Assembly (NCBI GenBank): GCA_903867855.1
Contig: CAIPTA010000173.1
Span: forward strand, 1 to 57,972
DNA length: 57,972 nt
Source: Oligoflexia bacterium
GTDB lineage: Bacteria > Bdellovibrionota > UBA1018 > CAIPTA01
Direction: 5' to 3'
This document shows positions 20,375-37,674 of this stretch, in pieces (the stretch's first letter is position 1; each line of letters begins with the position of its first letter). The translations under genes were made by a program, and so were the position numbers. The notes below the pieces were generated by a model, which had not been told where the DNA came from, made no database searches, and saw nothing but the letters and a program-made list of their open reading frames with translations.

Positions 20375-21196
20375 ATGAAGTTTCATTTTTCATTCGTGGT
20401 ATTATTATTTACTCTCGTGGCTTGTTCCCACGCTCCTACTGAGGGAGGAAGGCGCAGCATCGCATCCCTTGATATTTCGAGTACTTTTGTGCCCATTCAT
20501 GCGGGCAGTTTTGATATGGGCAGCGACGAGAATGAATATGGGCGCACGATGATGGAAACACGTCACCATGTAAGCATCACCCACGATTTTGAGATGCAAG
20601 CCACTCCTGTTACACAAATTCAATTTAAGCGTGTAATGAGCATGAACCCTTCATTCACCCATCACAAATCAGAGTGCCCTGAGAACTATGAGGAGAAAAC
20701 TTTCTGTTGCACCACCAATCCAGTGGAAAGCGTGAGCTGGTACCAAGTGCAAAACTTCATTACGGCCATGAACCAGAAACATGATGGCTATGTGTATCGA
20801 TTGCCAACTTCCGCGGAGTGGGAGTATGCGGCGCGCGCGGGATCCAGCAGCACTTTCTTCTTCGGAGATGATGTAGACGAACTAGGGAAATACTCTTGGT
20901 ACTTTGAAAACTCTCGGCAACGCACCCATCCTGTGGCGAGCAAGCGTCCGAATGCTTGGGGCCTCTATGATATGGCAGGTAATGTGCGCAATTGGGTGGC
21001 GGATTTACCCCCAGAATATACAGCCGATGCGCTGATTGACCCTGTGGGTGCATTAAAATCCGATAACCATGAAATTCGCGGTTGTTCCTGGTCGAATTTT
21101 TCCACCGAGTGTAGGTCTGGTGCGAGATTTAGTGATACTTCCGATACCGCAAGTTCGGCCACGGGCTTTCGCTTGGTTCGCACAAAAGCGCCTTGA
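20375..21196 (+). CDS. Lipoprotein with formylglycine-generating-enzyme (SUMF1/CLec-fold) domain
   Basis: Lipobox LVAC, F.MGS, PVESVSW, YRLPTSAEWEYAARAG, PNAWGLYDMAGNV, RG.SW, GFRLV. Confidence 0.9.
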   Translation: MKFHFSFVVLLFTLVACSHAPTEGGRRSIASLDISSTFVPIHAGSFDMGSDENEYGRTMMETRHHVSITHDFEMQATPVTQIQFKRVMSMNPSFTHHKSECPENYEEKTFCCTTNPVESVSWYQVQNFITAMNQKHDGYVYRLPTSAEWEYAARAGSSSTFFFGDDVDELGKYSWYFENSRQRTHPVASKRPNAWGLYDMAGNVRNWVADLPPEYTADALIDPVGALKSDNHEIRGCSWSNFSTECRSGARFSDTSDTASSATGFRLVRTKAP

Positions 21197-21241
21197 ATCT
21201 AGTCACACGGTAGGCGCGATTACTCACACGCACGATATACG

Positions 21242-22621
21242 TTGACGACGCTGGCACCTGTACTTGAAAATTATTGTATGCGTCTGCTATTGGTCTTAGA
21301 CAATCAGGAAGTAAGAGAGTTAATGAGTTTCCAGCTTTCCAGCCGTTTTGCCTTGGAAGTGCAAGAGTTACCAAACTTTGACGATGCAGCCAGTTTCCTC
21401 GAAGGCGAAGATAATGCCGGTCTCTCCCAGATCACAGAGCTATTGATTGCTCCCTATAACGGCAAGGCGAATGAGCTCACAGAGTATCTCCAGTCGCGCG
21501 TAAAGCCACTACCAACGATCTTCTACTATGAAGGTGAAGTGCCACCAGCGGATGTCTTAAAAGGCTTACTCACGCTCGGGCTTTTGGAAAAGCAGCAGAT
21601 TGTAGAGGGCTCAGCCAGACTATTAGAAGACTATCTCTCGAAAAATGGCGAGTATGCCGATCCAAATGATTTCTGTCCGATTCATACTAGCCTACTGATG
21701 CGAACCACTCCCTTGAAGAGTGATATATATATCAAGCTTTCCAAAAACAAATTTGTGAAGCTCTTCCACTCTGGCGCTGAATTCGATCAATCGGATCTAG
21801 AGCGCTACTATAAGGTGAAGAAGATTGAGTTCATGTACCTGAAGCGATCCGAGACTGCGGAATTCATGGGCAAGTTTTCGAAAGAATTAGATCTACTCCT
21901 CTCCAAAGAAGAGATCACTATCCAAGAAGCAGCAGAAACCATGATGCTTACTCAAGAGATGATTCAAGAATTGGTTCATCGAGTTGGTTTCAGTGCAGAA
22001 GTGCAGGAGCTCGCCAGAAAAAATGTGGCCCTCACCATCAAGGCGATTGGAACGAGTCCAAAATTGCTCACGATTATTTCTCAAATCCATGCGGGAGCAA
22101 ATTATATTGCCCAACACAGCTCCCTCCTTGCCTATGTTGGCTGTTGCTTGGCCAAGGAAATGTCGTGGGGATCTGATTCCACTTTTTCCAAACTGGTGAT
22201 CGCGGCGTATATGCACGATATCTCTCTTACGAATCCAAAGTTAGCGAAAATAAATTCACTGGCGGAGCTGAATCAATTGAAGGATCAGTTCACTGAACAA
22301 GAGGTGAAAAGTTATCACCTGCATCCGTTAAAATCTGCCGATGTGGTTAAATCATTTCAAGAAATCCCTGCCGACGTTGATATTATCGTTTCCCATCATC
22401 ATGAACGTCCGAACGGGACGGGTTTTCCCCGCGGATTGCAGCATAATTATATCGCTCCACTAGCCGCTGTTTTTATCGTGGCTCACGATCTCTCGCAGGC
22501 AATCCTTAATAAACGAGAATCCTTCAACTTGGCTTCCTTCATTGTGGAAGCAAAACAAAACTACACTTTGGGGAATTTTAAAAAAGTAGTTTCTGCGCTA
22601 GAAAAAATTAAATTTGAATGA
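21242..22621 (+). CDS. Degenerate REC plus HD-GYP-type phosphohydrolase
   Basis: AYMHDI (HD) and HHHERPNGTGFPRG (GYP as GFP). The N-terminal REC-like fold lacks a clear phospho-Asp. Confidence 0.82.
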   Translation: MTTLAPVLENYCMRLLLVLDNQEVRELMSFQLSSRFALEVQELPNFDDAASFLEGEDNAGLSQITELLIAPYNGKANELTEYLQSRVKPLPTIFYYEGEVPPADVLKGLLTLGLLEKQQIVEGSARLLEDYLSKNGEYADPNDFCPIHTSLLMRTTPLKSDIYIKLSKNKFVKLFHSGAEFDQSDLERYYKVKKIEFMYLKRSETAEFMGKFSKELDLLLSKEEITIQEAAETMMLTQEMIQELVHRVGFSAEVQELARKNVALTIKAIGTSPKLLTIISQIHAGANYIAQHSSLLAYVGCCLAKEMSWGSDSTFSKLVIAAYMHDISLTNPKLAKINSLAELNQLKDQFTEQEVKSYHLHPLKSADVVKSFQEIPADVDIIVSHHHERPNGTGFPRGLQHNYIAPLAAVFIVAHDLSQAILNKRESFNLASFIVEAKQNYTLGNFKKVVSALEKIKFE

Positions 22622-22655
22622 GCTCTGAATTTTTTCCCTTTTACGGAGAATCTTA

Positions 22656-23270
22656 GTGCTGCTCGATCCGCGAAATTTACTTTCAAAAGCCTTTTTTTAT
22701 CGTTGGTTCCAAGGGCTGATTGGCCGAGAAGAGCCTTGGAAGCGCTTCGTGGAGGGTCTGGATATTCTGCCGGGCCAGAGAGTGTTAGATATCGGCTGTG
22801 GACCCGCAAGTATTCTCGCCCAACTTCCGAATGACATTGAATACTTTGGGCTTGATCATAATCCGAATTATATTGAAGAAGCGCAGGCGAAATATGGATC
22901 TCGCGGCACTTTCATTGTGCGTTCCATTTCCGCGGAGCTCGCCAAAGAGTTCGGCCAGTTTGATACCATATTGGCAATTGGTGTTTTGCATCACCTTGAC
23001 GATGCAGGTGCTGAGGCGCTTCTTGCCGCTGCATCAAAGGTACTTAAGCCAGACGGAAAACTTGTCAGCTTTGATGGCGTGTTTTTTGATGGGCAGAACC
23101 CCATCGCAAAATTTCTGTTATACTTGGATCGTGGACGCTTCGTGCGCACTTCGGATGCCTATGAAAACTTAGCGAAGCGAAATTTTCCCAAGGTGAAAAG
23201 TCGCTTCATTCACGATCTTTTGGCAGTTCCCTATTCGCATTTTGTGATGGAGTGCAAGCTTCGGGAATAA
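22656..23270 (+). CDS. Class I SAM-dependent methyltransferase
   Basis: VLDIGCGPA motif I, FDTI, LHHLDD, LKPDG. Confidence 0.88.
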   Translation: MLLDPRNLLSKAFFYRWFQGLIGREEPWKRFVEGLDILPGQRVLDIGCGPASILAQLPNDIEYFGLDHNPNYIEEAQAKYGSRGTFIVRSISAELAKEFGQFDTILAIGVLHHLDDAGAEALLAAASKVLKPDGKLVSFDGVFFDGQNPIAKFLLYLDRGRFVRTSDAYENLAKRNFPKVKSRFIHDLLAVPYSHFVMECKLRE

Positions 23271-23293
23271 TTTCGATTCTCTTGCCGGCTATC

Positions 23294-36401: not shown

Positions 36402-36411
36402 CGTATGCCTT

Positions 36412-37149
36412 TCAAAAATTAGGAAGATTTCCGGAAACATAAAGTGTTGCGCCTTGAAGGCCATCAGCAGGAGTGATCGTAACGGCAAGATCGCCCATGC
36501 GCTCTTTAAATCGCTCGCTCAAGCTCACACCATAGCTCATACCGATGGCAGCACCTGCAATGAGATCATGCAAATAGTGCATATTCATTTCCATCCGGCT
36601 TTCCGCCACCACAAAGGCAGAAGCATAAGCGGCAGCGCCATAGTACCAAGGATGATTTGCTCCCACCACGCTGGCAAAGGCAAAGGCGGTAGTAGCATGG
36701 CCTGAAGGGAAAGAGTGCTTCCCTCCGCTCGGACGTTGCTCCGGTATGCTATACTTCAAAATTGTGGAATCTGCGGCGGCGAATCCAGTGGATTCCACCA
36801 TCAATACGGCGAGGTGTTCAGAGCGCTTTTGATCTGTAAATAAATAATGTGTATACATTCCTACTGCATAGGCTGCATTGGGTAGCACTTGTCCCCAGGC
36901 ATCGCCGAGCTTATCTATTTTATCTCCTAGTGGTTTGTAAGCGTAGGCGCGCGCTTGAATGCGTTTCTCCCAATTTTTTGCGAAAAGTAGAATTCCCCCA
37001 GTTAGCACGGCTCCTGTGGCGAGAATGATTTGCCCGTCGGAATTGGTTACGGGTGCAACGAAATCTCCAATCAGTTCTGATTCGGCGCGGGCGGATGGAA
37101 AGGGCAAAAATGTGAGAACCAATAGGAGAAATAGGGATTTTTTTAGCAT
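36412..37149 (-). CDS. PAP2 (phosphatase PAP2) family protein
   Basis: K....E.RP, SFPSGH, SRM....HYLHD...GA. Confidence 0.88.
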   Translation of the reverse strand: MLKKSLFLLLVLTFLPFPSARAESELIGDFVAPVTNSDGQIILATGAVLTGGILLFAKNWEKRIQARAYAYKPLGDKIDKLGDAWGQVLPNAAYAVGMYTHYLFTDQKRSEHLAVLMVESTGFAAADSTILKYSIPEQRPSGGKHSFPSGHATTAFAFASVVGANHPWYYGAAAYASAFVVAESRMEMNMHYLHDLIAGAAIGMSYGVSLSERFKERMGDLAVTITPADGLQGATLYVSGNLPNF

Positions 37150-37192
37150 CGAATGAGCTTGATTTAAGTTGACCAAAAAACCAAATAATTTC

Positions 37193-37220
37193 TAAAGATT
37201 TTAGGACCTATACCCGATGA
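37193..37220 (+). promoter_or_regulatory. Sigma28-type promoter
   Basis: TAAAGATT-N12-CCCGATGA upstream of the lipoprotein-HisKA-REC operon. Confidence 0.6.
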
Positions 37221-37239
37221 AAAGAGTGGAGTGGGTATT

Positions 37240-37674
37240 ATGCGCCATGGTCTTTTATATTTCAGTGTTTTCTGGTTAGCGGCGTGTGCCAGCACGCCTT
37301 CGCGAGCTCCTTCCTTTGCTGGGGCTGACCAGGTAATGAATGCGGTTGACGCTTGTCGTAAAGATGCTCCTCTCGCGGCCAGTTCGTTTTGTGCGAGCGC
37401 TAAGCCCGGATACCAAGATTGCCGCGCGGATAGCGCGTCAAACAGTGTAGAATTTTGTATAGCTGCGGAAGCTGGCTACAAAGACTGTCGACAAGACTAT
37501 GCGAATAGTAGTGCTACTGTTTGCTTACACGCTAAATCTGGCTTTGCTGATTGCAGAAGAGATTACCTAAATTTTGGAGTGAATACTTGTCTCAAGGCAG
37601 ACGCGGAATTCCAAAGTTGCCGCACAAAAAAGACGGCGGCAGATTGTTTGAGTATGACTGTGGGGGAACGATGA
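37240..37674 (+). CDS. Lipoprotein with four 22-aa Cys-rich tandem repeats
   Basis: Lipobox LAAC. Repeats have the form CR.D.......C..A..G(Y/F).D. Confidence 0.75.
   Translation: MRHGLLYFSVFWLAACASTPSRAPSFAGADQVMNAVDACRKDAPLAASSFCASAKPGYQDCRADSASNSVEFCIAAEAGYKDCRQDYANSSATVCLHAKSGFADCRRDYLNFGVNTCLKADAEFQSCRTKKTAADCLSMTVGER

What the first reader, a model, noticed from the sequence alone, without database searches (positions are those of the whole stretch)
20453..37314. Shared R-x-[P/I]-(A)-S motif after the export signal of four FliA-linked proteins: candidate sorting or processing signal
Four unrelated exported proteins carry this motif shortly after the lipobox Cys or N-terminal hydrophobic segment: RSIAS (20453-20467, FGE lipoprotein), RGPAS (26597-26611, BamE-like lipoprotein), RTIAS (27050-27064) and RAPS (37303-37314, Cys-repeat lipoprotein). 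All four lie in units preceded by sigma28-like promoters (20341, 26438, 37193). I recall RxPAS/RxIAS being frequent in Bdellovibrionota secreted proteins, but know of no functional description. By analogy with PEXEL/RxLR motifs, it could be a protease-cleavage, glycosylation or surface/prey-delivery signal (inference).
Basis: partly seen in the sequence, partly recalled or inferred. Interest (0 to 1): 0.7.

Follow-up and report, generated by a model that had tools for sequence, protein, structure and literature searches.

The report
Conserved R-x-P/I-A-S tag on exported proteins
A five-residue tag, Arg-x-(Pro/Ile)-Ala-Ser, is real and kept by selection in flexible tethers and tails of exported proteins of these Bdellovibrio-type bacteria. 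I found no description of it, and it is not tied to the export signal as first proposed.

Summary
All four peptides are at the stated coordinates. Three of them (RSIAS, RGPAS, RTIAS) belong to a real motif. RAPS does not: R.PS is not enriched.

- **This genome:** R.[PI]AS occurs 15 times in the 50 residues after predicted signal peptides, against 1.7 expected. Over all exported-protein sequence it is 41 against 9.4; in non-exported proteins, 31 against 22.
- **Relatives and outgroup:** 2 Mb sampled from four relatives gave 22 against 6.3. 800 kb from two betaproteobacteria gave 2 against 1.9.
- **Level of selection:** the carriers share no homology and use all Arg and Ser codon families, so selection acts on the peptide.
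- **Position:** the motif also lies in linkers and at C-termini.
- **LbcA-like TPR lipoprotein:** 71 of 78 homologues keep R-x-P-A-S at the end of an otherwise hypervariable tail.
- **BamE-like family of the window:** 23 of 148 representatives carry it, against 1.1 expected.
- **Promoters:** motif genes are enriched behind sigma28-like promoters.

It is therefore a lineage-wide short linear motif of flexible exported segments, not a post-signal-peptide sorting code. My best guess (about 0.35) is a recognition site for a periplasmic Ser-directed modification. A docking ligand is nearly as likely. I found no published description.

The parts
20453..20467 (+). RSIAS motif in the tether of the FGE-sulfatase-domain lipoprotein (gene 20375-21196); the Arg is at +11 from the lipobox Cys
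   Evidence: translation; Pfam PF03781 over residues 37-269. The AF2 model has pLDDT 58 for residues 21-30 and 86 for residues 31-40, so the motif sits at the border between tether and domain. Three other FGE homologues carry R.[PI]AS 5-7 residues before the domain.
26597..26611 (+). RGPAS motif in the tether of the BamE-like lipoprotein (gene 26495-26920, or from GTG at 26474); the Arg is at +12 from the Cys
   Evidence: 23 of 148 representative homologues carry R.[PI]AS against 1.1 expected, mostly at varying places in the tether. It is absent from the same-family genera, which have DDPSEYDRGY, and present in more distant orthologues.
27050..27064 (+). RTIAS motif in the 223-aa exported protein of unknown family (gene 26927-27598), after a probable A-R-A signal-peptidase site
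   Evidence: Syntenic orthologues in five related MAGs keep GGR[TS]IASLQEE. A more distant one has RLSLAT.
6722..6736 (-).
   Evidence: (coordinates).
37303..37314 (+). RAPS in the Cys-repeat lipoprotein (gene 37231-37674); not supported as a member of the motif
   Evidence: R.PS shows no enrichment in exported proteins: 38 against 46.8 in this genome and 27 against 31.3 in relatives.
20341..20367 (+). sigma28-like promoter TAAAATTTAATCGTCCCTATACCGATA, 34 nt before the FGE lipoprotein start
   Evidence: For comparison, the FliA consensus of B. bacteriovorus attack-phase promoters is TTAAG-N16-CCGATA (PMC3627812).
26438..26463 (+). sigma28-like promoter TAAATTTTTTGGCCCATCTGACGATA before the BamE-like gene and the 26927 gene
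37193..37219 (+). sigma28-like site TAAAGATTTTAGGACCTATACCCGATG before the Cys-repeat lipoprotein gene
6879..6905 (-). sigma28-like promoter TAAAGTTTTTCGCATAAGGCGCCGATA, starting 43 nt before the start of gene 5474-6862 (minus strand)

Best explanation
R-x-[Pro/Ile]-Ala-Ser is a genuine short linear motif of Sec-exported proteins in this Bdellovibrionota lineage, and it is selected at the protein level. It sits in flexible segments: lipoprotein tethers behind the lipobox, inter-domain linkers and C-terminal tails. It is kept while the surrounding sequence drifts. This much is shown, and I put it at about 0.9.

The next step is inferred. I think the motif is most likely the recognition site ('sequon') of a periplasmic enzyme that modifies the invariant Ser of unfolded segments. 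The nearest working analogy is PglL-type general O-glycosylation. That system marks Ser preceded by Ala in Ala/Pro-rich tethers and tails of lipoproteins and periplasmic proteins. Here an upstream Arg and a Pro/Ile would be added specificity determinants. The tag is over-represented on proteins transcribed from sigma28 (FliA)-type promoters, which in Bdellovibrio drive the attack-phase programme. The confidence given below is for this full mechanistic statement.
For: Enrichment is specific to exported proteins.
- This genome: 41 observed against 9.4 expected in exported proteins; 31 against 21.9 in non-exported proteins.
- R.PAS and R.IAS are each about 4-fold enriched in this genome and in 2 Mb from four relatives. 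K.PAS, R.PAT, R.PAA, SAP.R and R.PS are flat.
- Two betaproteobacteria: 2 against 1.9.

Selection acts on the peptide.
- All six Arg and six Ser codons are used.
- The carriers show no homology to each other.

The motif is conserved amid drift.
- 71 of 78 LbcA-like homologues have R-x-P-A-S in the last 60 residues.
- In them x takes 15 different residues, the linker is 10-46 aa long, and pairwise identity before the motif is 8.7%.
- In the BamE-like family 23 of 148 representatives carry it against 1.1 expected.

The context is flexible.
- The flanks are richer in disorder-promoting residues (p = 1e-5).
- The motif sits at the pLDDT 58/86 border in the FGE model.

The logic resembles a sequon.
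- Ser is required and Thr is not accepted (R.PAT 0.4-fold).
- Ala is favoured at -1.
- PglL systems act in the periplasm, strongly prefer Ser over Thr, favour Ala at -1, and target disordered Ala/Pro-rich regions (PMC8423747).
- The genome encodes five Wzy_C (O-antigen-ligase family) proteins, and relatives in the same family encode 4-9.

Sigma28 link: 6 of 39 against 19 of 1140 (p = 1e-4); at operon level 8 of 39 against 31 of 1140.
Against: - No mass-spectrometric or other direct evidence of a modification exists.
- PglL systems have no rigid sequon, whereas this motif is rigid and needs an Arg four residues upstream.
- The PglL_A signature (PF15864) was not found in this genome or in 20 relatives. 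Wzy_C proteins may simply be WaaL or Wzy enzymes.
- Wzy_C copy number does not track motif enrichment among the sampled relatives.
- Near-invariance at the very end of one protein's tail, usually followed by Arg/Lys and then the stop codon, is at least as typical of a binding ligand as of a modification site.
- Signal peptides and genes were called with my own heuristics, which mark 36% of ORFs as 'exported'. This should dilute the signal rather than create it.
Confidence: 0.35

Rival explanations
1. The motif is a docking ligand. The pentapeptide, presented on a flexible tether or tail, binds in extended form to a conserved periplasmic hub such as a TPR groove, a PDZ domain or an enzyme exosite, and so recruits about 40 different envelope proteins to it. 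One concrete version: the LbcA-like TPR lipoprotein and a CtpA-type S41 protease read the tag. The adaptor's own tail then acts as a tether or pseudo-substrate, as the C-terminus of E. coli NlpI is handled by Prc (from my own knowledge, not checked here).
For: - There is near-invariant R-x-P-A-S, usually followed by R/K and the stop codon, at the end of a hypervariable tail in 71 of 78 homologues.
- That protein's best solved relative is LbcA/PA4667: E = 2e-26 over one colinear stretch of 370 residues; Foldseek ranks 3 and 12 at 21-22% identity.
- The window itself encodes a CtpA-like S41+PDZ peptidase, and the genome has five S41 genes.
- There is usually one copy per protein, and 25 of 41 copies lie within 50 residues of a mature terminus.
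- The LbcA TPR domain is thought to bind substrates (PMC11021448).
Against: - AF2 does not dock the tail on the protein's own TPR domain (pLDDT about 59 for the last 7 residues).
- The three M23 peptidases, the class of the known CtpA substrates, lack the motif.
- C-terminal Arg/Lys is not a usual PDZ ligand.
- P. aeruginosa CtpA substrates show no shared sequence signature.
Confidence: 0.3
2. The motif is a proteolytic processing site. A periplasmic protease cuts at or next to it, for example after the Arg or between Ala and Ser. This would release lipoproteins from their anchor or trim tails, possibly timed with the attack phase.
For: - The motif lies in lipoprotein tethers just before the folded domain.
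- The genome carries many exported S1 and S41 peptidases, including a trypsin-like gene directly upstream of the FGE gene and the S41 gene in the window.
- From my own knowledge, some C-terminal processing proteases cut between Ala and Ser/Ala, as in pre-D1 maturation.
Against: - In 52 of 71 LbcA-like tails only 1-2 residues follow the Ser, so cleavage there would remove almost nothing.
- The motif also occurs in soluble, non-lipidated proteins and in internal linkers.
- There is no data on protein N-termini.
Confidence: 0.12
3. One reading: a post-signal-peptide sorting or prey-delivery code, like PEXEL or RxLR, that routes attack-phase proteins to the surface or into prey.
For: - There is strong enrichment in the first 50 residues after the signal peptide: 15 against 1.7.
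- The motif is linked to sigma28-like promoters.
- Many carriers are lineage-specific secreted proteins with few orthologues.
Against: - The motif is equally enriched far from the N-terminus and at C-termini.
- Its distance from the Cys is variable.
- It is present in core envelope proteins: the LbcA-like protein in 40 of 41 genomes and the BamE-like protein.
- A signal peptide alone suffices for release of a reporter in B. bacteriovorus (PMC12622784).
Confidence: 0.08
4. There is no function, and the enrichment comes from linker composition, paralogy or annotation artefacts.
For: - Pro/Ala/Ser-rich linkers are common after signal peptides.
- In an unbiased scan R.PAS alone would not survive Bonferroni correction.
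- Gene and signal-peptide calls are home-made.
Against: - Shuffles within 50-residue windows keep local composition and still give about 4-fold enrichment.
- Given [PI]AS, Arg at -2 is found in 15 of 59 cases against a 3.6% background (p = 2e-9).
- Permuted and one-residue-changed controls are flat.
- The result is replicated in independent genomes and families.
- The carriers share no homology.
Confidence: 0.03

Closest known systems
Acceptor regions of PglL-type general O-glycosylation (Neisseria, Burkholderia; optimal N. meningitidis motif WPAAASAG)
   Same: - Only exported proteins are concerned.
- Sites lie in disordered Ala/Pro-rich tethers and tails, many of them in lipoproteins.
- Ser is strongly preferred over Thr, and Ala is favoured at -1.
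- Tens of target proteins per genome (PMC8423747).
   Different: - Those systems have no rigid sequon, whereas here there is a fixed R-x-[P/I]-A-S with an obligatory Arg.
- No PglL_A signature was found.
- No glycan has been shown.
- In one family the site is conserved across a whole phylum-level lineage.
Defined bacterial glycosylation sequons: D/E-x-N-x-S/T (Campylobacter PglB) and D-[S/T]-[A/I/L/V/M/T] (Bacteroidota O-glycosylation; this second one is from my own knowledge)
   Same: Each is a short fixed sequon with a charged determinant a few residues upstream of the acceptor, read on flexible parts of exported proteins.
   Different: The residues and the charge differ (basic Arg at -4 instead of an acidic residue). 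No enzyme has been identified, and nothing is known about protein glycosylation in Bdellovibrionota.
PEXEL (RxLxE/Q/D) and RxLR host-targeting motifs of Plasmodium and oomycetes
   Same: Both have an Arg-x-hydrophobic core a short distance behind a signal peptide, in many unrelated secreted proteins of an organism that attacks other cells.
   Different: Those motifs are position-bound near the N-terminus and mark exported effectors. This motif also sits in linkers and at C-termini and marks core envelope lipoproteins.
Docking motifs on disordered envelope-protein segments (TonB box, TolB box) and adaptor-protease pairs LbcA-CtpA and NlpI-Prc
   Same: - A short peptide on a flexible arm is shared by many unrelated envelope proteins.
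- The best-conserved carrier is an LbcA-like TPR lipoprotein.
- CtpA-like S41 proteases are present.
   Different: No partner is known. The known CtpA substrate classes lack the motif here. LbcA binds CtpA through its N-terminal helix, not its C-terminus (PMC11021448).
Lipoprotein sorting signals (Lol-avoidance residues at +2/+3; the Bacteroidota surface-export signal just after the Cys; both from my own knowledge)
   Same: They are located in the lipoprotein tether behind the lipobox.
   Different: Those signals occupy fixed positions next to the Cys. Here the Arg is at +6 to +27, and the motif also occurs in non-lipoproteins and at C-termini.

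Membership tests
PEXEL/RxLR-type N-terminal targeting motif | Fixed location within a few tens of residues after the signal peptide | tested here: not met
   26 of 41 occurrences in exported proteins lie more than 50 residues from the signal peptide, and three proteins end two residues after the motif. In the LbcA-like family the motif is at the C-terminus.
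PEXEL/RxLR-type N-terminal targeting motif | Marks effectors delivered to the attacked cell rather than core proteins | tested here: not met
   It is present and conserved in a TPR lipoprotein found in 40 of 41 relatives and in BamE-like lipoproteins.
PEXEL/RxLR-type N-terminal targeting motif | Cleaved or read by a dedicated protease during export | not testable with these tools
   This needs N-terminomics or biochemistry.
PglL-type general O-glycosylation acceptor site | Occurs only in proteins that reach the periplasm | tested here: met
   Exported proteins: 41 against 9.4. Non-exported proteins: 31 against 21.9. The same pattern holds in relatives.
PglL-type general O-glycosylation acceptor site | Lies in disordered, Ala/Pro-rich segments | tested here: met
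   The flanks are enriched in disorder-promoting residues (p = 1e-5). The AF2 models show low-confidence tether and tail at the motif.
PglL-type general O-glycosylation acceptor site | Ser acceptor preferred over Thr, with Ala favoured at -1 | tested here: met
   R.PAT is 0.4-0.5-fold and R.PAS 4-fold. At position 4, Ala occurs 15 times and Ser 6 times. This is a sequence statistic only, not proof that the Ser is an acceptor.
PglL-type general O-glycosylation acceptor site | No rigid sequon | tested here: not met
   The motif is rigid: R, P/I, A and S are each required, and each is at least 90% conserved in the LbcA-like family.
PglL-type general O-glycosylation acceptor site | A PglL O-oligosaccharyltransferase (Wzy_C plus the PglL_A signature) is encoded | tested here: inconclusive
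   There are five Wzy_C genes, but PF15864 was not detected in this genome or in 20 relatives. None of the control genomes is known to have PglL.
PglL-type general O-glycosylation acceptor site | A glycan is attached to the Ser | not testable with these tools
   This needs glycoproteomics.
LbcA-CtpA / NlpI-Prc type tag-dependent proteolysis | A TPR lipoprotein adaptor homologous to LbcA and an S41 protease with a PDZ domain are present | tested here: met
   The match to PA4667/LbcA has E = 2e-26, and Foldseek ranks 8sxf_C third. The window's S41+PDZ protein matches CtpA structures at E = 2e-29 to 2e-30. Similarity between TPR proteins is partly generic.
LbcA-CtpA / NlpI-Prc type tag-dependent proteolysis | Substrates (peptidoglycan hydrolases of the M23 and NlpC/P60 families) carry the recognition element | tested here: not met
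   None of the three M23 proteins has the motif or a loose variant. NlpC/P60 proteins were not examined.
Lipoprotein sorting signal (Lol avoidance or surface-export signal) | Fixed position directly after the lipidated Cys, in lipoproteins only | tested here: not met
   The Arg lies at +6 to +27 from the Cys, and many carriers have type I signal peptides.
sigma28 (FliA) promoter | TAAA-N15-GCCGATAA-like -35 and -10 elements at the right distance from the gene | tested here: met
   The sites are at 20341, 26438, 37193 and 6905 (minus strand). The B. bacteriovorus consensus is TTAAG-N16-CCGATA. This is a consensus match only; transcription was not tested.

The most novel reading that the evidence does not exclude
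R-x-[P/I]-A-S is the address tag of a so far unknown envelope pathway of predatory Bdellovibrionota. It marks a set of about 40 exported proteins, over-represented in the sigma28 attack-phase regulon, for a common fate. That fate is either a Ser-linked modification or hand-over to the LbcA-like TPR adaptor and a CtpA-type protease. The cell could then remodel its envelope proteome in one step at the switch between attack and growth, and the adaptor's own invariant C-terminal tag would act as a built-in competitor or tether.
Probability: 0.12. Interest if true: 0.85.

Novelty: new variant of a known kind. Interest (0 to 1): 0.68.

Why it matters
Short linear motifs that many unrelated exported proteins share are rare in bacteria. 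When they have been explained (glycosylation sequons, the TonB box, lipoprotein sorting signals), each revealed a dedicated machine.

This motif has four useful properties:
- It is simple enough to search for.
- It replicates in independent genomes of the lineage.
- It is nearly invariant in one core lipoprotein.
- It is biased towards the sigma28 regulon, which in Bdellovibrio runs the attack phase.

Trypsin cuts after the motif's Arg, so existing proteomic data from cultured Bdellovibrio could show within days whether the Ser is modified or the chain is cut. The finding turns a vague recollection into a defined, testable feature of the predator's envelope biology. It also gives a handle on about 40 mostly unannotated proteins per genome.

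Tried and rejected
- **DNA- or RNA-level element:** rejected. The motif uses all Arg and Ser codon families, with no shared nucleotides.
- **Shared N-terminal domain or paralogy:** rejected. There are no BLASTP hits among the 19 carriers at E <= 0.01, and no Pfam or NCBIfam model covers the motif.
- **Known description:** searches for RxPAS and for Bdellovibrio sorting motifs, secretome or glycosylation found nothing relevant. The scan's earlier notes hold nothing on it.
- **RAPS / R.PS as a shortened form:** rejected on counts.
- **PglL_A signature:** absent.
- **The tag marks CtpA-type substrates:** M23 peptidases lack it.
- **Self-docking of the LbcA-like tail:** AF2 gives only pLDDT about 59, which is inconclusive.
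- **Orthologue conservation for accessory carriers:** the PLD-like and 423-aa proteins have too few orthologues. One PLD-like orthologue lacks the motif, and the C113 lipoprotein has only one homologue in 5.8 billion proteins.
- **Wider outgroup and relative sampling:** The outgroup test therefore rests on only about 47,000 residues of exported protein.
- **Unbiased motif scan:** R.PAS was the top motif that is not low-complexity, but on its own it would not survive multiple-testing correction. Significance rests on the pre-specified hypothesis and on independent replication.

Full report
**1. What is in the window**

Each lies in an ORF that starts with a hydrophobic export segment.

| Window coordinates | Peptide | Protein | Gene | Position |
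|---|---|---|---|---|
| 20453-20467 | RSIAS | FGE-sulfatase-domain lipoprotein (Pfam PF03781) | 20375-21196 | Arg at +11 from the lipobox Cys |
| 26597-26611 | RGPAS | small lipoprotein, weak BamE match | 26495-26920 | Arg at +12 from the Cys |
| 27050-27064 | RTIAS | 223-aa protein of unknown family | 26927-27598 | after a probable A-R-A peptidase site |
| 37303-37314 | RAPS | Cys-repeat lipoprotein | 37231-37674 | Arg at +7 from the Cys |

The three sigma28-like sites can be read in the DNA. They resemble the TTAAG-N16-CCGATA consensus that heads two thirds of the attack-phase promoters of B. bacteriovorus (PMC3627812).

The window holds exactly four R.[PI]AS pentapeptides. All four are in exported proteins.

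The organism is an uncultured member of Bdellovibrionota. Its nearest public MAGs are named Bdellovibrionales, Bacteriovoracia or Oligoflexia.

**2. Is it more than chance?**

I laid the whole 3.36-Mb assembly in the Python box. I called 3300 genes with a codon-usage model and marked 1179 as export-like with a simple rule: hydrophobic core plus lipobox or A-x-A site. Both steps are home-made and over-inclusive, which should dilute a real signal rather than create one.

- In the 50 residues after the predicted cleavage site, R.[PI]AS occurs 15 times. The mean of 1000 within-window shuffles is 1.67 and the maximum is 6.
- Without the three instances of the finding, the Poisson p is 2e-7.
- Given [PI]AS, Arg stands two residues before it in 15 of 59 cases, against a background of 3.6% (p = 2e-9). 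Each of the four fixed positions contributes.
- The 19 N-terminal carriers show no mutual homology.
- They use all Arg and Ser codon families, so selection is on the peptide and not on the DNA.
- In an unbiased scan, R.PAS is the top motif that is not a low-complexity run.

**3. The motif is not tied to the signal peptide**

This changed my reading. Over the whole mature part of export-like proteins the counts are as follows.

| Region of protein | Observed | Expected |
|---|---|---|
| Residues 0-50 after the signal peptide | 15 | 1.7 |
| Residues 50-150 | 6 | 2.6 |
| Beyond residue 150 | 20 | 5.1 |
| Non-exported proteins | 31 | 21.9 |

- Three proteins end two residues after the motif: RVPASAH, RQPASLQ and RTPASVP.
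- The flanks are enriched in disorder-promoting residues (p = 1e-5). Gly is favoured at -2, Pro at -3 and Val at +1.
- In the AF2 model of the FGE lipoprotein, the motif sits at the border between a low-confidence tether (pLDDT 58) and the confident domain (pLDDT 86 and above).

Taken apart, the P and I forms behave alike, and the controls are flat.

| Pattern | This genome, exported (obs / exp) | Relatives, exported (obs / exp) |
|---|---|---|
| R.PAS | 19 / 4.8 | 11 / 2.6 |
| R.IAS | 22 / 5.8 | 11 / 3.3 |
| R.PS | 38 / 46.8 | 27 / 31.3 |

K.PAS, R.PAT, R.PAA and SAP.R also stay between 0.3- and 1.0-fold, and the non-exported sets stay at 1.2-1.7-fold. RAPS, the fourth instance of the finding, is therefore not supported as a member.

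**4. Replication outside this genome**

- Samples of 2 Mb from four relatives (family, order and class level) gave 22 occurrences in exported proteins against 6.3 expected. Non-exported proteins gave 21 against 13.0.
- 800 kb from two betaproteobacteria gave 2 against 1.9, both inside folded domains. One of these is the S-x-x-K active site of a penicillin-binding protein.
Lineage specificity is therefore suggested, not proven.

**5. Conservation within families**

*LbcA-like TPR lipoprotein.* The strongest evidence comes from a 614-aa TPR lipoprotein elsewhere in the genome (contig C50). It ends ...SEPVARVPASAH and has orthologues in 40 of 41 relatives.

- Among 82 homologues from the large protein collection, 73 end with R-x-P-A-S followed by a few residues.
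- In the 78 that I aligned, R, P, A and S are each at least 90% conserved.
- 71 of the 78 have the motif in the last 60 residues. In these the x position takes 15 different residues. The linker before the motif is 10-46 residues long, with 8.7% mean pairwise identity. 52 of the 71 end one or two residues after the Ser, and the next residue is Arg or Lys in 40.
- The exceptions mostly read R-x-P-A-A, R-R-P-S-S or R-x-P-A-G.

*BamE-like lipoprotein of the window.* 23 of 148 representatives (clusters at 50% identity) carry R.[PI]AS, against 1.1 expected. About five of them sit in a conserved helix of the domain. The rest lie at varying places in the tether. The same-family genera lack the motif at that place, while more distant orthologues have RAPAS, RSPAS, RTPAS or RGVAS.

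*The 26927 family.* It keeps GGR[TS]IASLQEE in five syntenic relatives.

*FGE family.* Three further homologues have the motif 5-7 residues before the domain.

*Accessory carriers.* They have few orthologues, and one PLD-like orthologue lacks the motif.

The picture is that of a short linear motif that is gained, lost and, where it matters, held fixed.

**6. Link to sigma28**

- A TAAA-N16-18-CGAT[AG] site within 150 nt upstream is present for 6 of 39 motif-bearing exported genes, against 19 of 1140 other exported genes (Fisher p = 1e-4).
- Counting operon mates, the figures are 8 of 39 against 31 of 1140 (p = 2e-5).
- Two of the six are the discovery cases, so the effect is real but smaller than it looks.
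- Motif genes also cluster on the chromosome: 11 pairs within ten genes against 3.6 expected (p = 0.0035).
- Most strong sigma28-like sites in this genome precede small exported proteins.

**7. What reads the motif?**

Nothing here shows this directly.

- *Sorting code next to the signal peptide.* This is unlikely for the reasons in section 3. In addition, a bare signal peptide of 20-23 residues released NanoLuc from B. bacteriovorus (PMC12622784).
- *Cleavage site.* This fits tethers but not tails that end one or two residues after the Ser.
- *Modification sequon.* Its logic matches PglL-type O-glycosylation: a periplasmic reaction, Ser much preferred over Thr, Ala at -1, and disordered Ala/Pro-rich tethers and tails (PMC8423747). 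The genome has five Wzy_C-family genes. However, PglL has no rigid sequon, the PglL_A signature is absent, and no glycoprotein is known in this phylum.
- *Docking ligand.* The best-conserved carrier is most like LbcA, the TPR lipoprotein that delivers substrates to the CtpA protease in P. aeruginosa. The window itself encodes a CtpA-like S41+PDZ peptidase at 34318-35784 on the minus strand. However, AF2 does not dock the tail on the protein's own TPR domain, the M23 peptidases lack the motif, and CtpA substrates have no common signature.

I rank the sequon reading slightly first (0.35) and docking second (0.30). This ranking is inference.

**8. Novelty and verdict**

The motif is real, selected and widespread in the lineage, and I could not find it described. 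Its positional premise and main analogy are not.

As a kind of thing, it belongs with sequons and docking motifs of exported proteins. Its sequence, lineage and regulon bias are new. Proteomic re-analysis of a cultured Bdellovibrio would settle the mechanism quickly, because trypsin cuts just before the informative peptide.

Noticed in passing
genome contigs C113:19993-21012, C113:21022-22203, C21:14510 (415 aa) and C55:4674 (738 aa); outside the window: Four exported Gly/Ser/Ala/Thr-rich low-complexity proteins share a short module near the C-terminus: [SP][LI]F[DEQ]x[VH]..., as in SLFEIVHSQY, SIFQQVHKKY, PLFERVHESI and SLFDLVSVKM. Each also has an R.[PI]AS copy nearby. They have no Pfam match.
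   Followed up: partly
genome contig C50:7130-15496 and the syntenic region of relative G006 (C1:37730-46180): The LbcA-like TPR lipoprotein heads a conserved same-strand row. It is followed by a small lipoprotein (275-287 aa) and then by a five-gene Opp/Dpp-type peptide ABC transporter, which includes a roughly 600-aa lipoprotein binding protein. A PhaR-like regulator is divergent on the other side. In two other relatives a Wzy_C gene lies within 2 kb of the TPR gene.
   Followed up: partly
window 34318-35784 (-): This is an exported S41 peptidase with a PDZ domain. Its closest solved relatives are the CtpA proteases of H. pylori and P. aeruginosa. The genome has five S41 genes, one directly after an EnvC-like M23 gene on contig C144.
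   Followed up: partly
window 37231-37886: The Cys-repeat lipoprotein gene overlaps by 4 nt (ATGA at 37671-37674) a small ORF with a histidine-kinase H-box-like stretch (FLHDVSSPLTSL). A response-regulator-like gene follows at 37886-38626. An exported Cys-rich protein thus appears translationally coupled to a signalling pair.
   Followed up: no
whole genome: Strong sigma28-like sites (TAAAG..N..GCCGATA, 34-57 nt before the start codon) mostly precede small exported proteins of unknown function, several of them Cys-rich, rather than flagellar genes. This fits the idea that FliA runs a broad attack-phase regulon in this lineage too.
   Followed up: partly
window 19361-20338 (+): A trypsin-like exported peptidase lies directly upstream of the FGE lipoprotein gene, with a terminator-like hairpin between them. 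It has TARHC around the catalytic His, and GYSGG where GDSGG is usual.
   Followed up: no
whole genome and relatives: This genome has five Wzy_C (O-antigen-ligase family) genes and its family relatives have 4-9, against 1-3 in other families of the class. One is in a 1018-aa open frame and one in a 590-aa frame.
   Followed up: no
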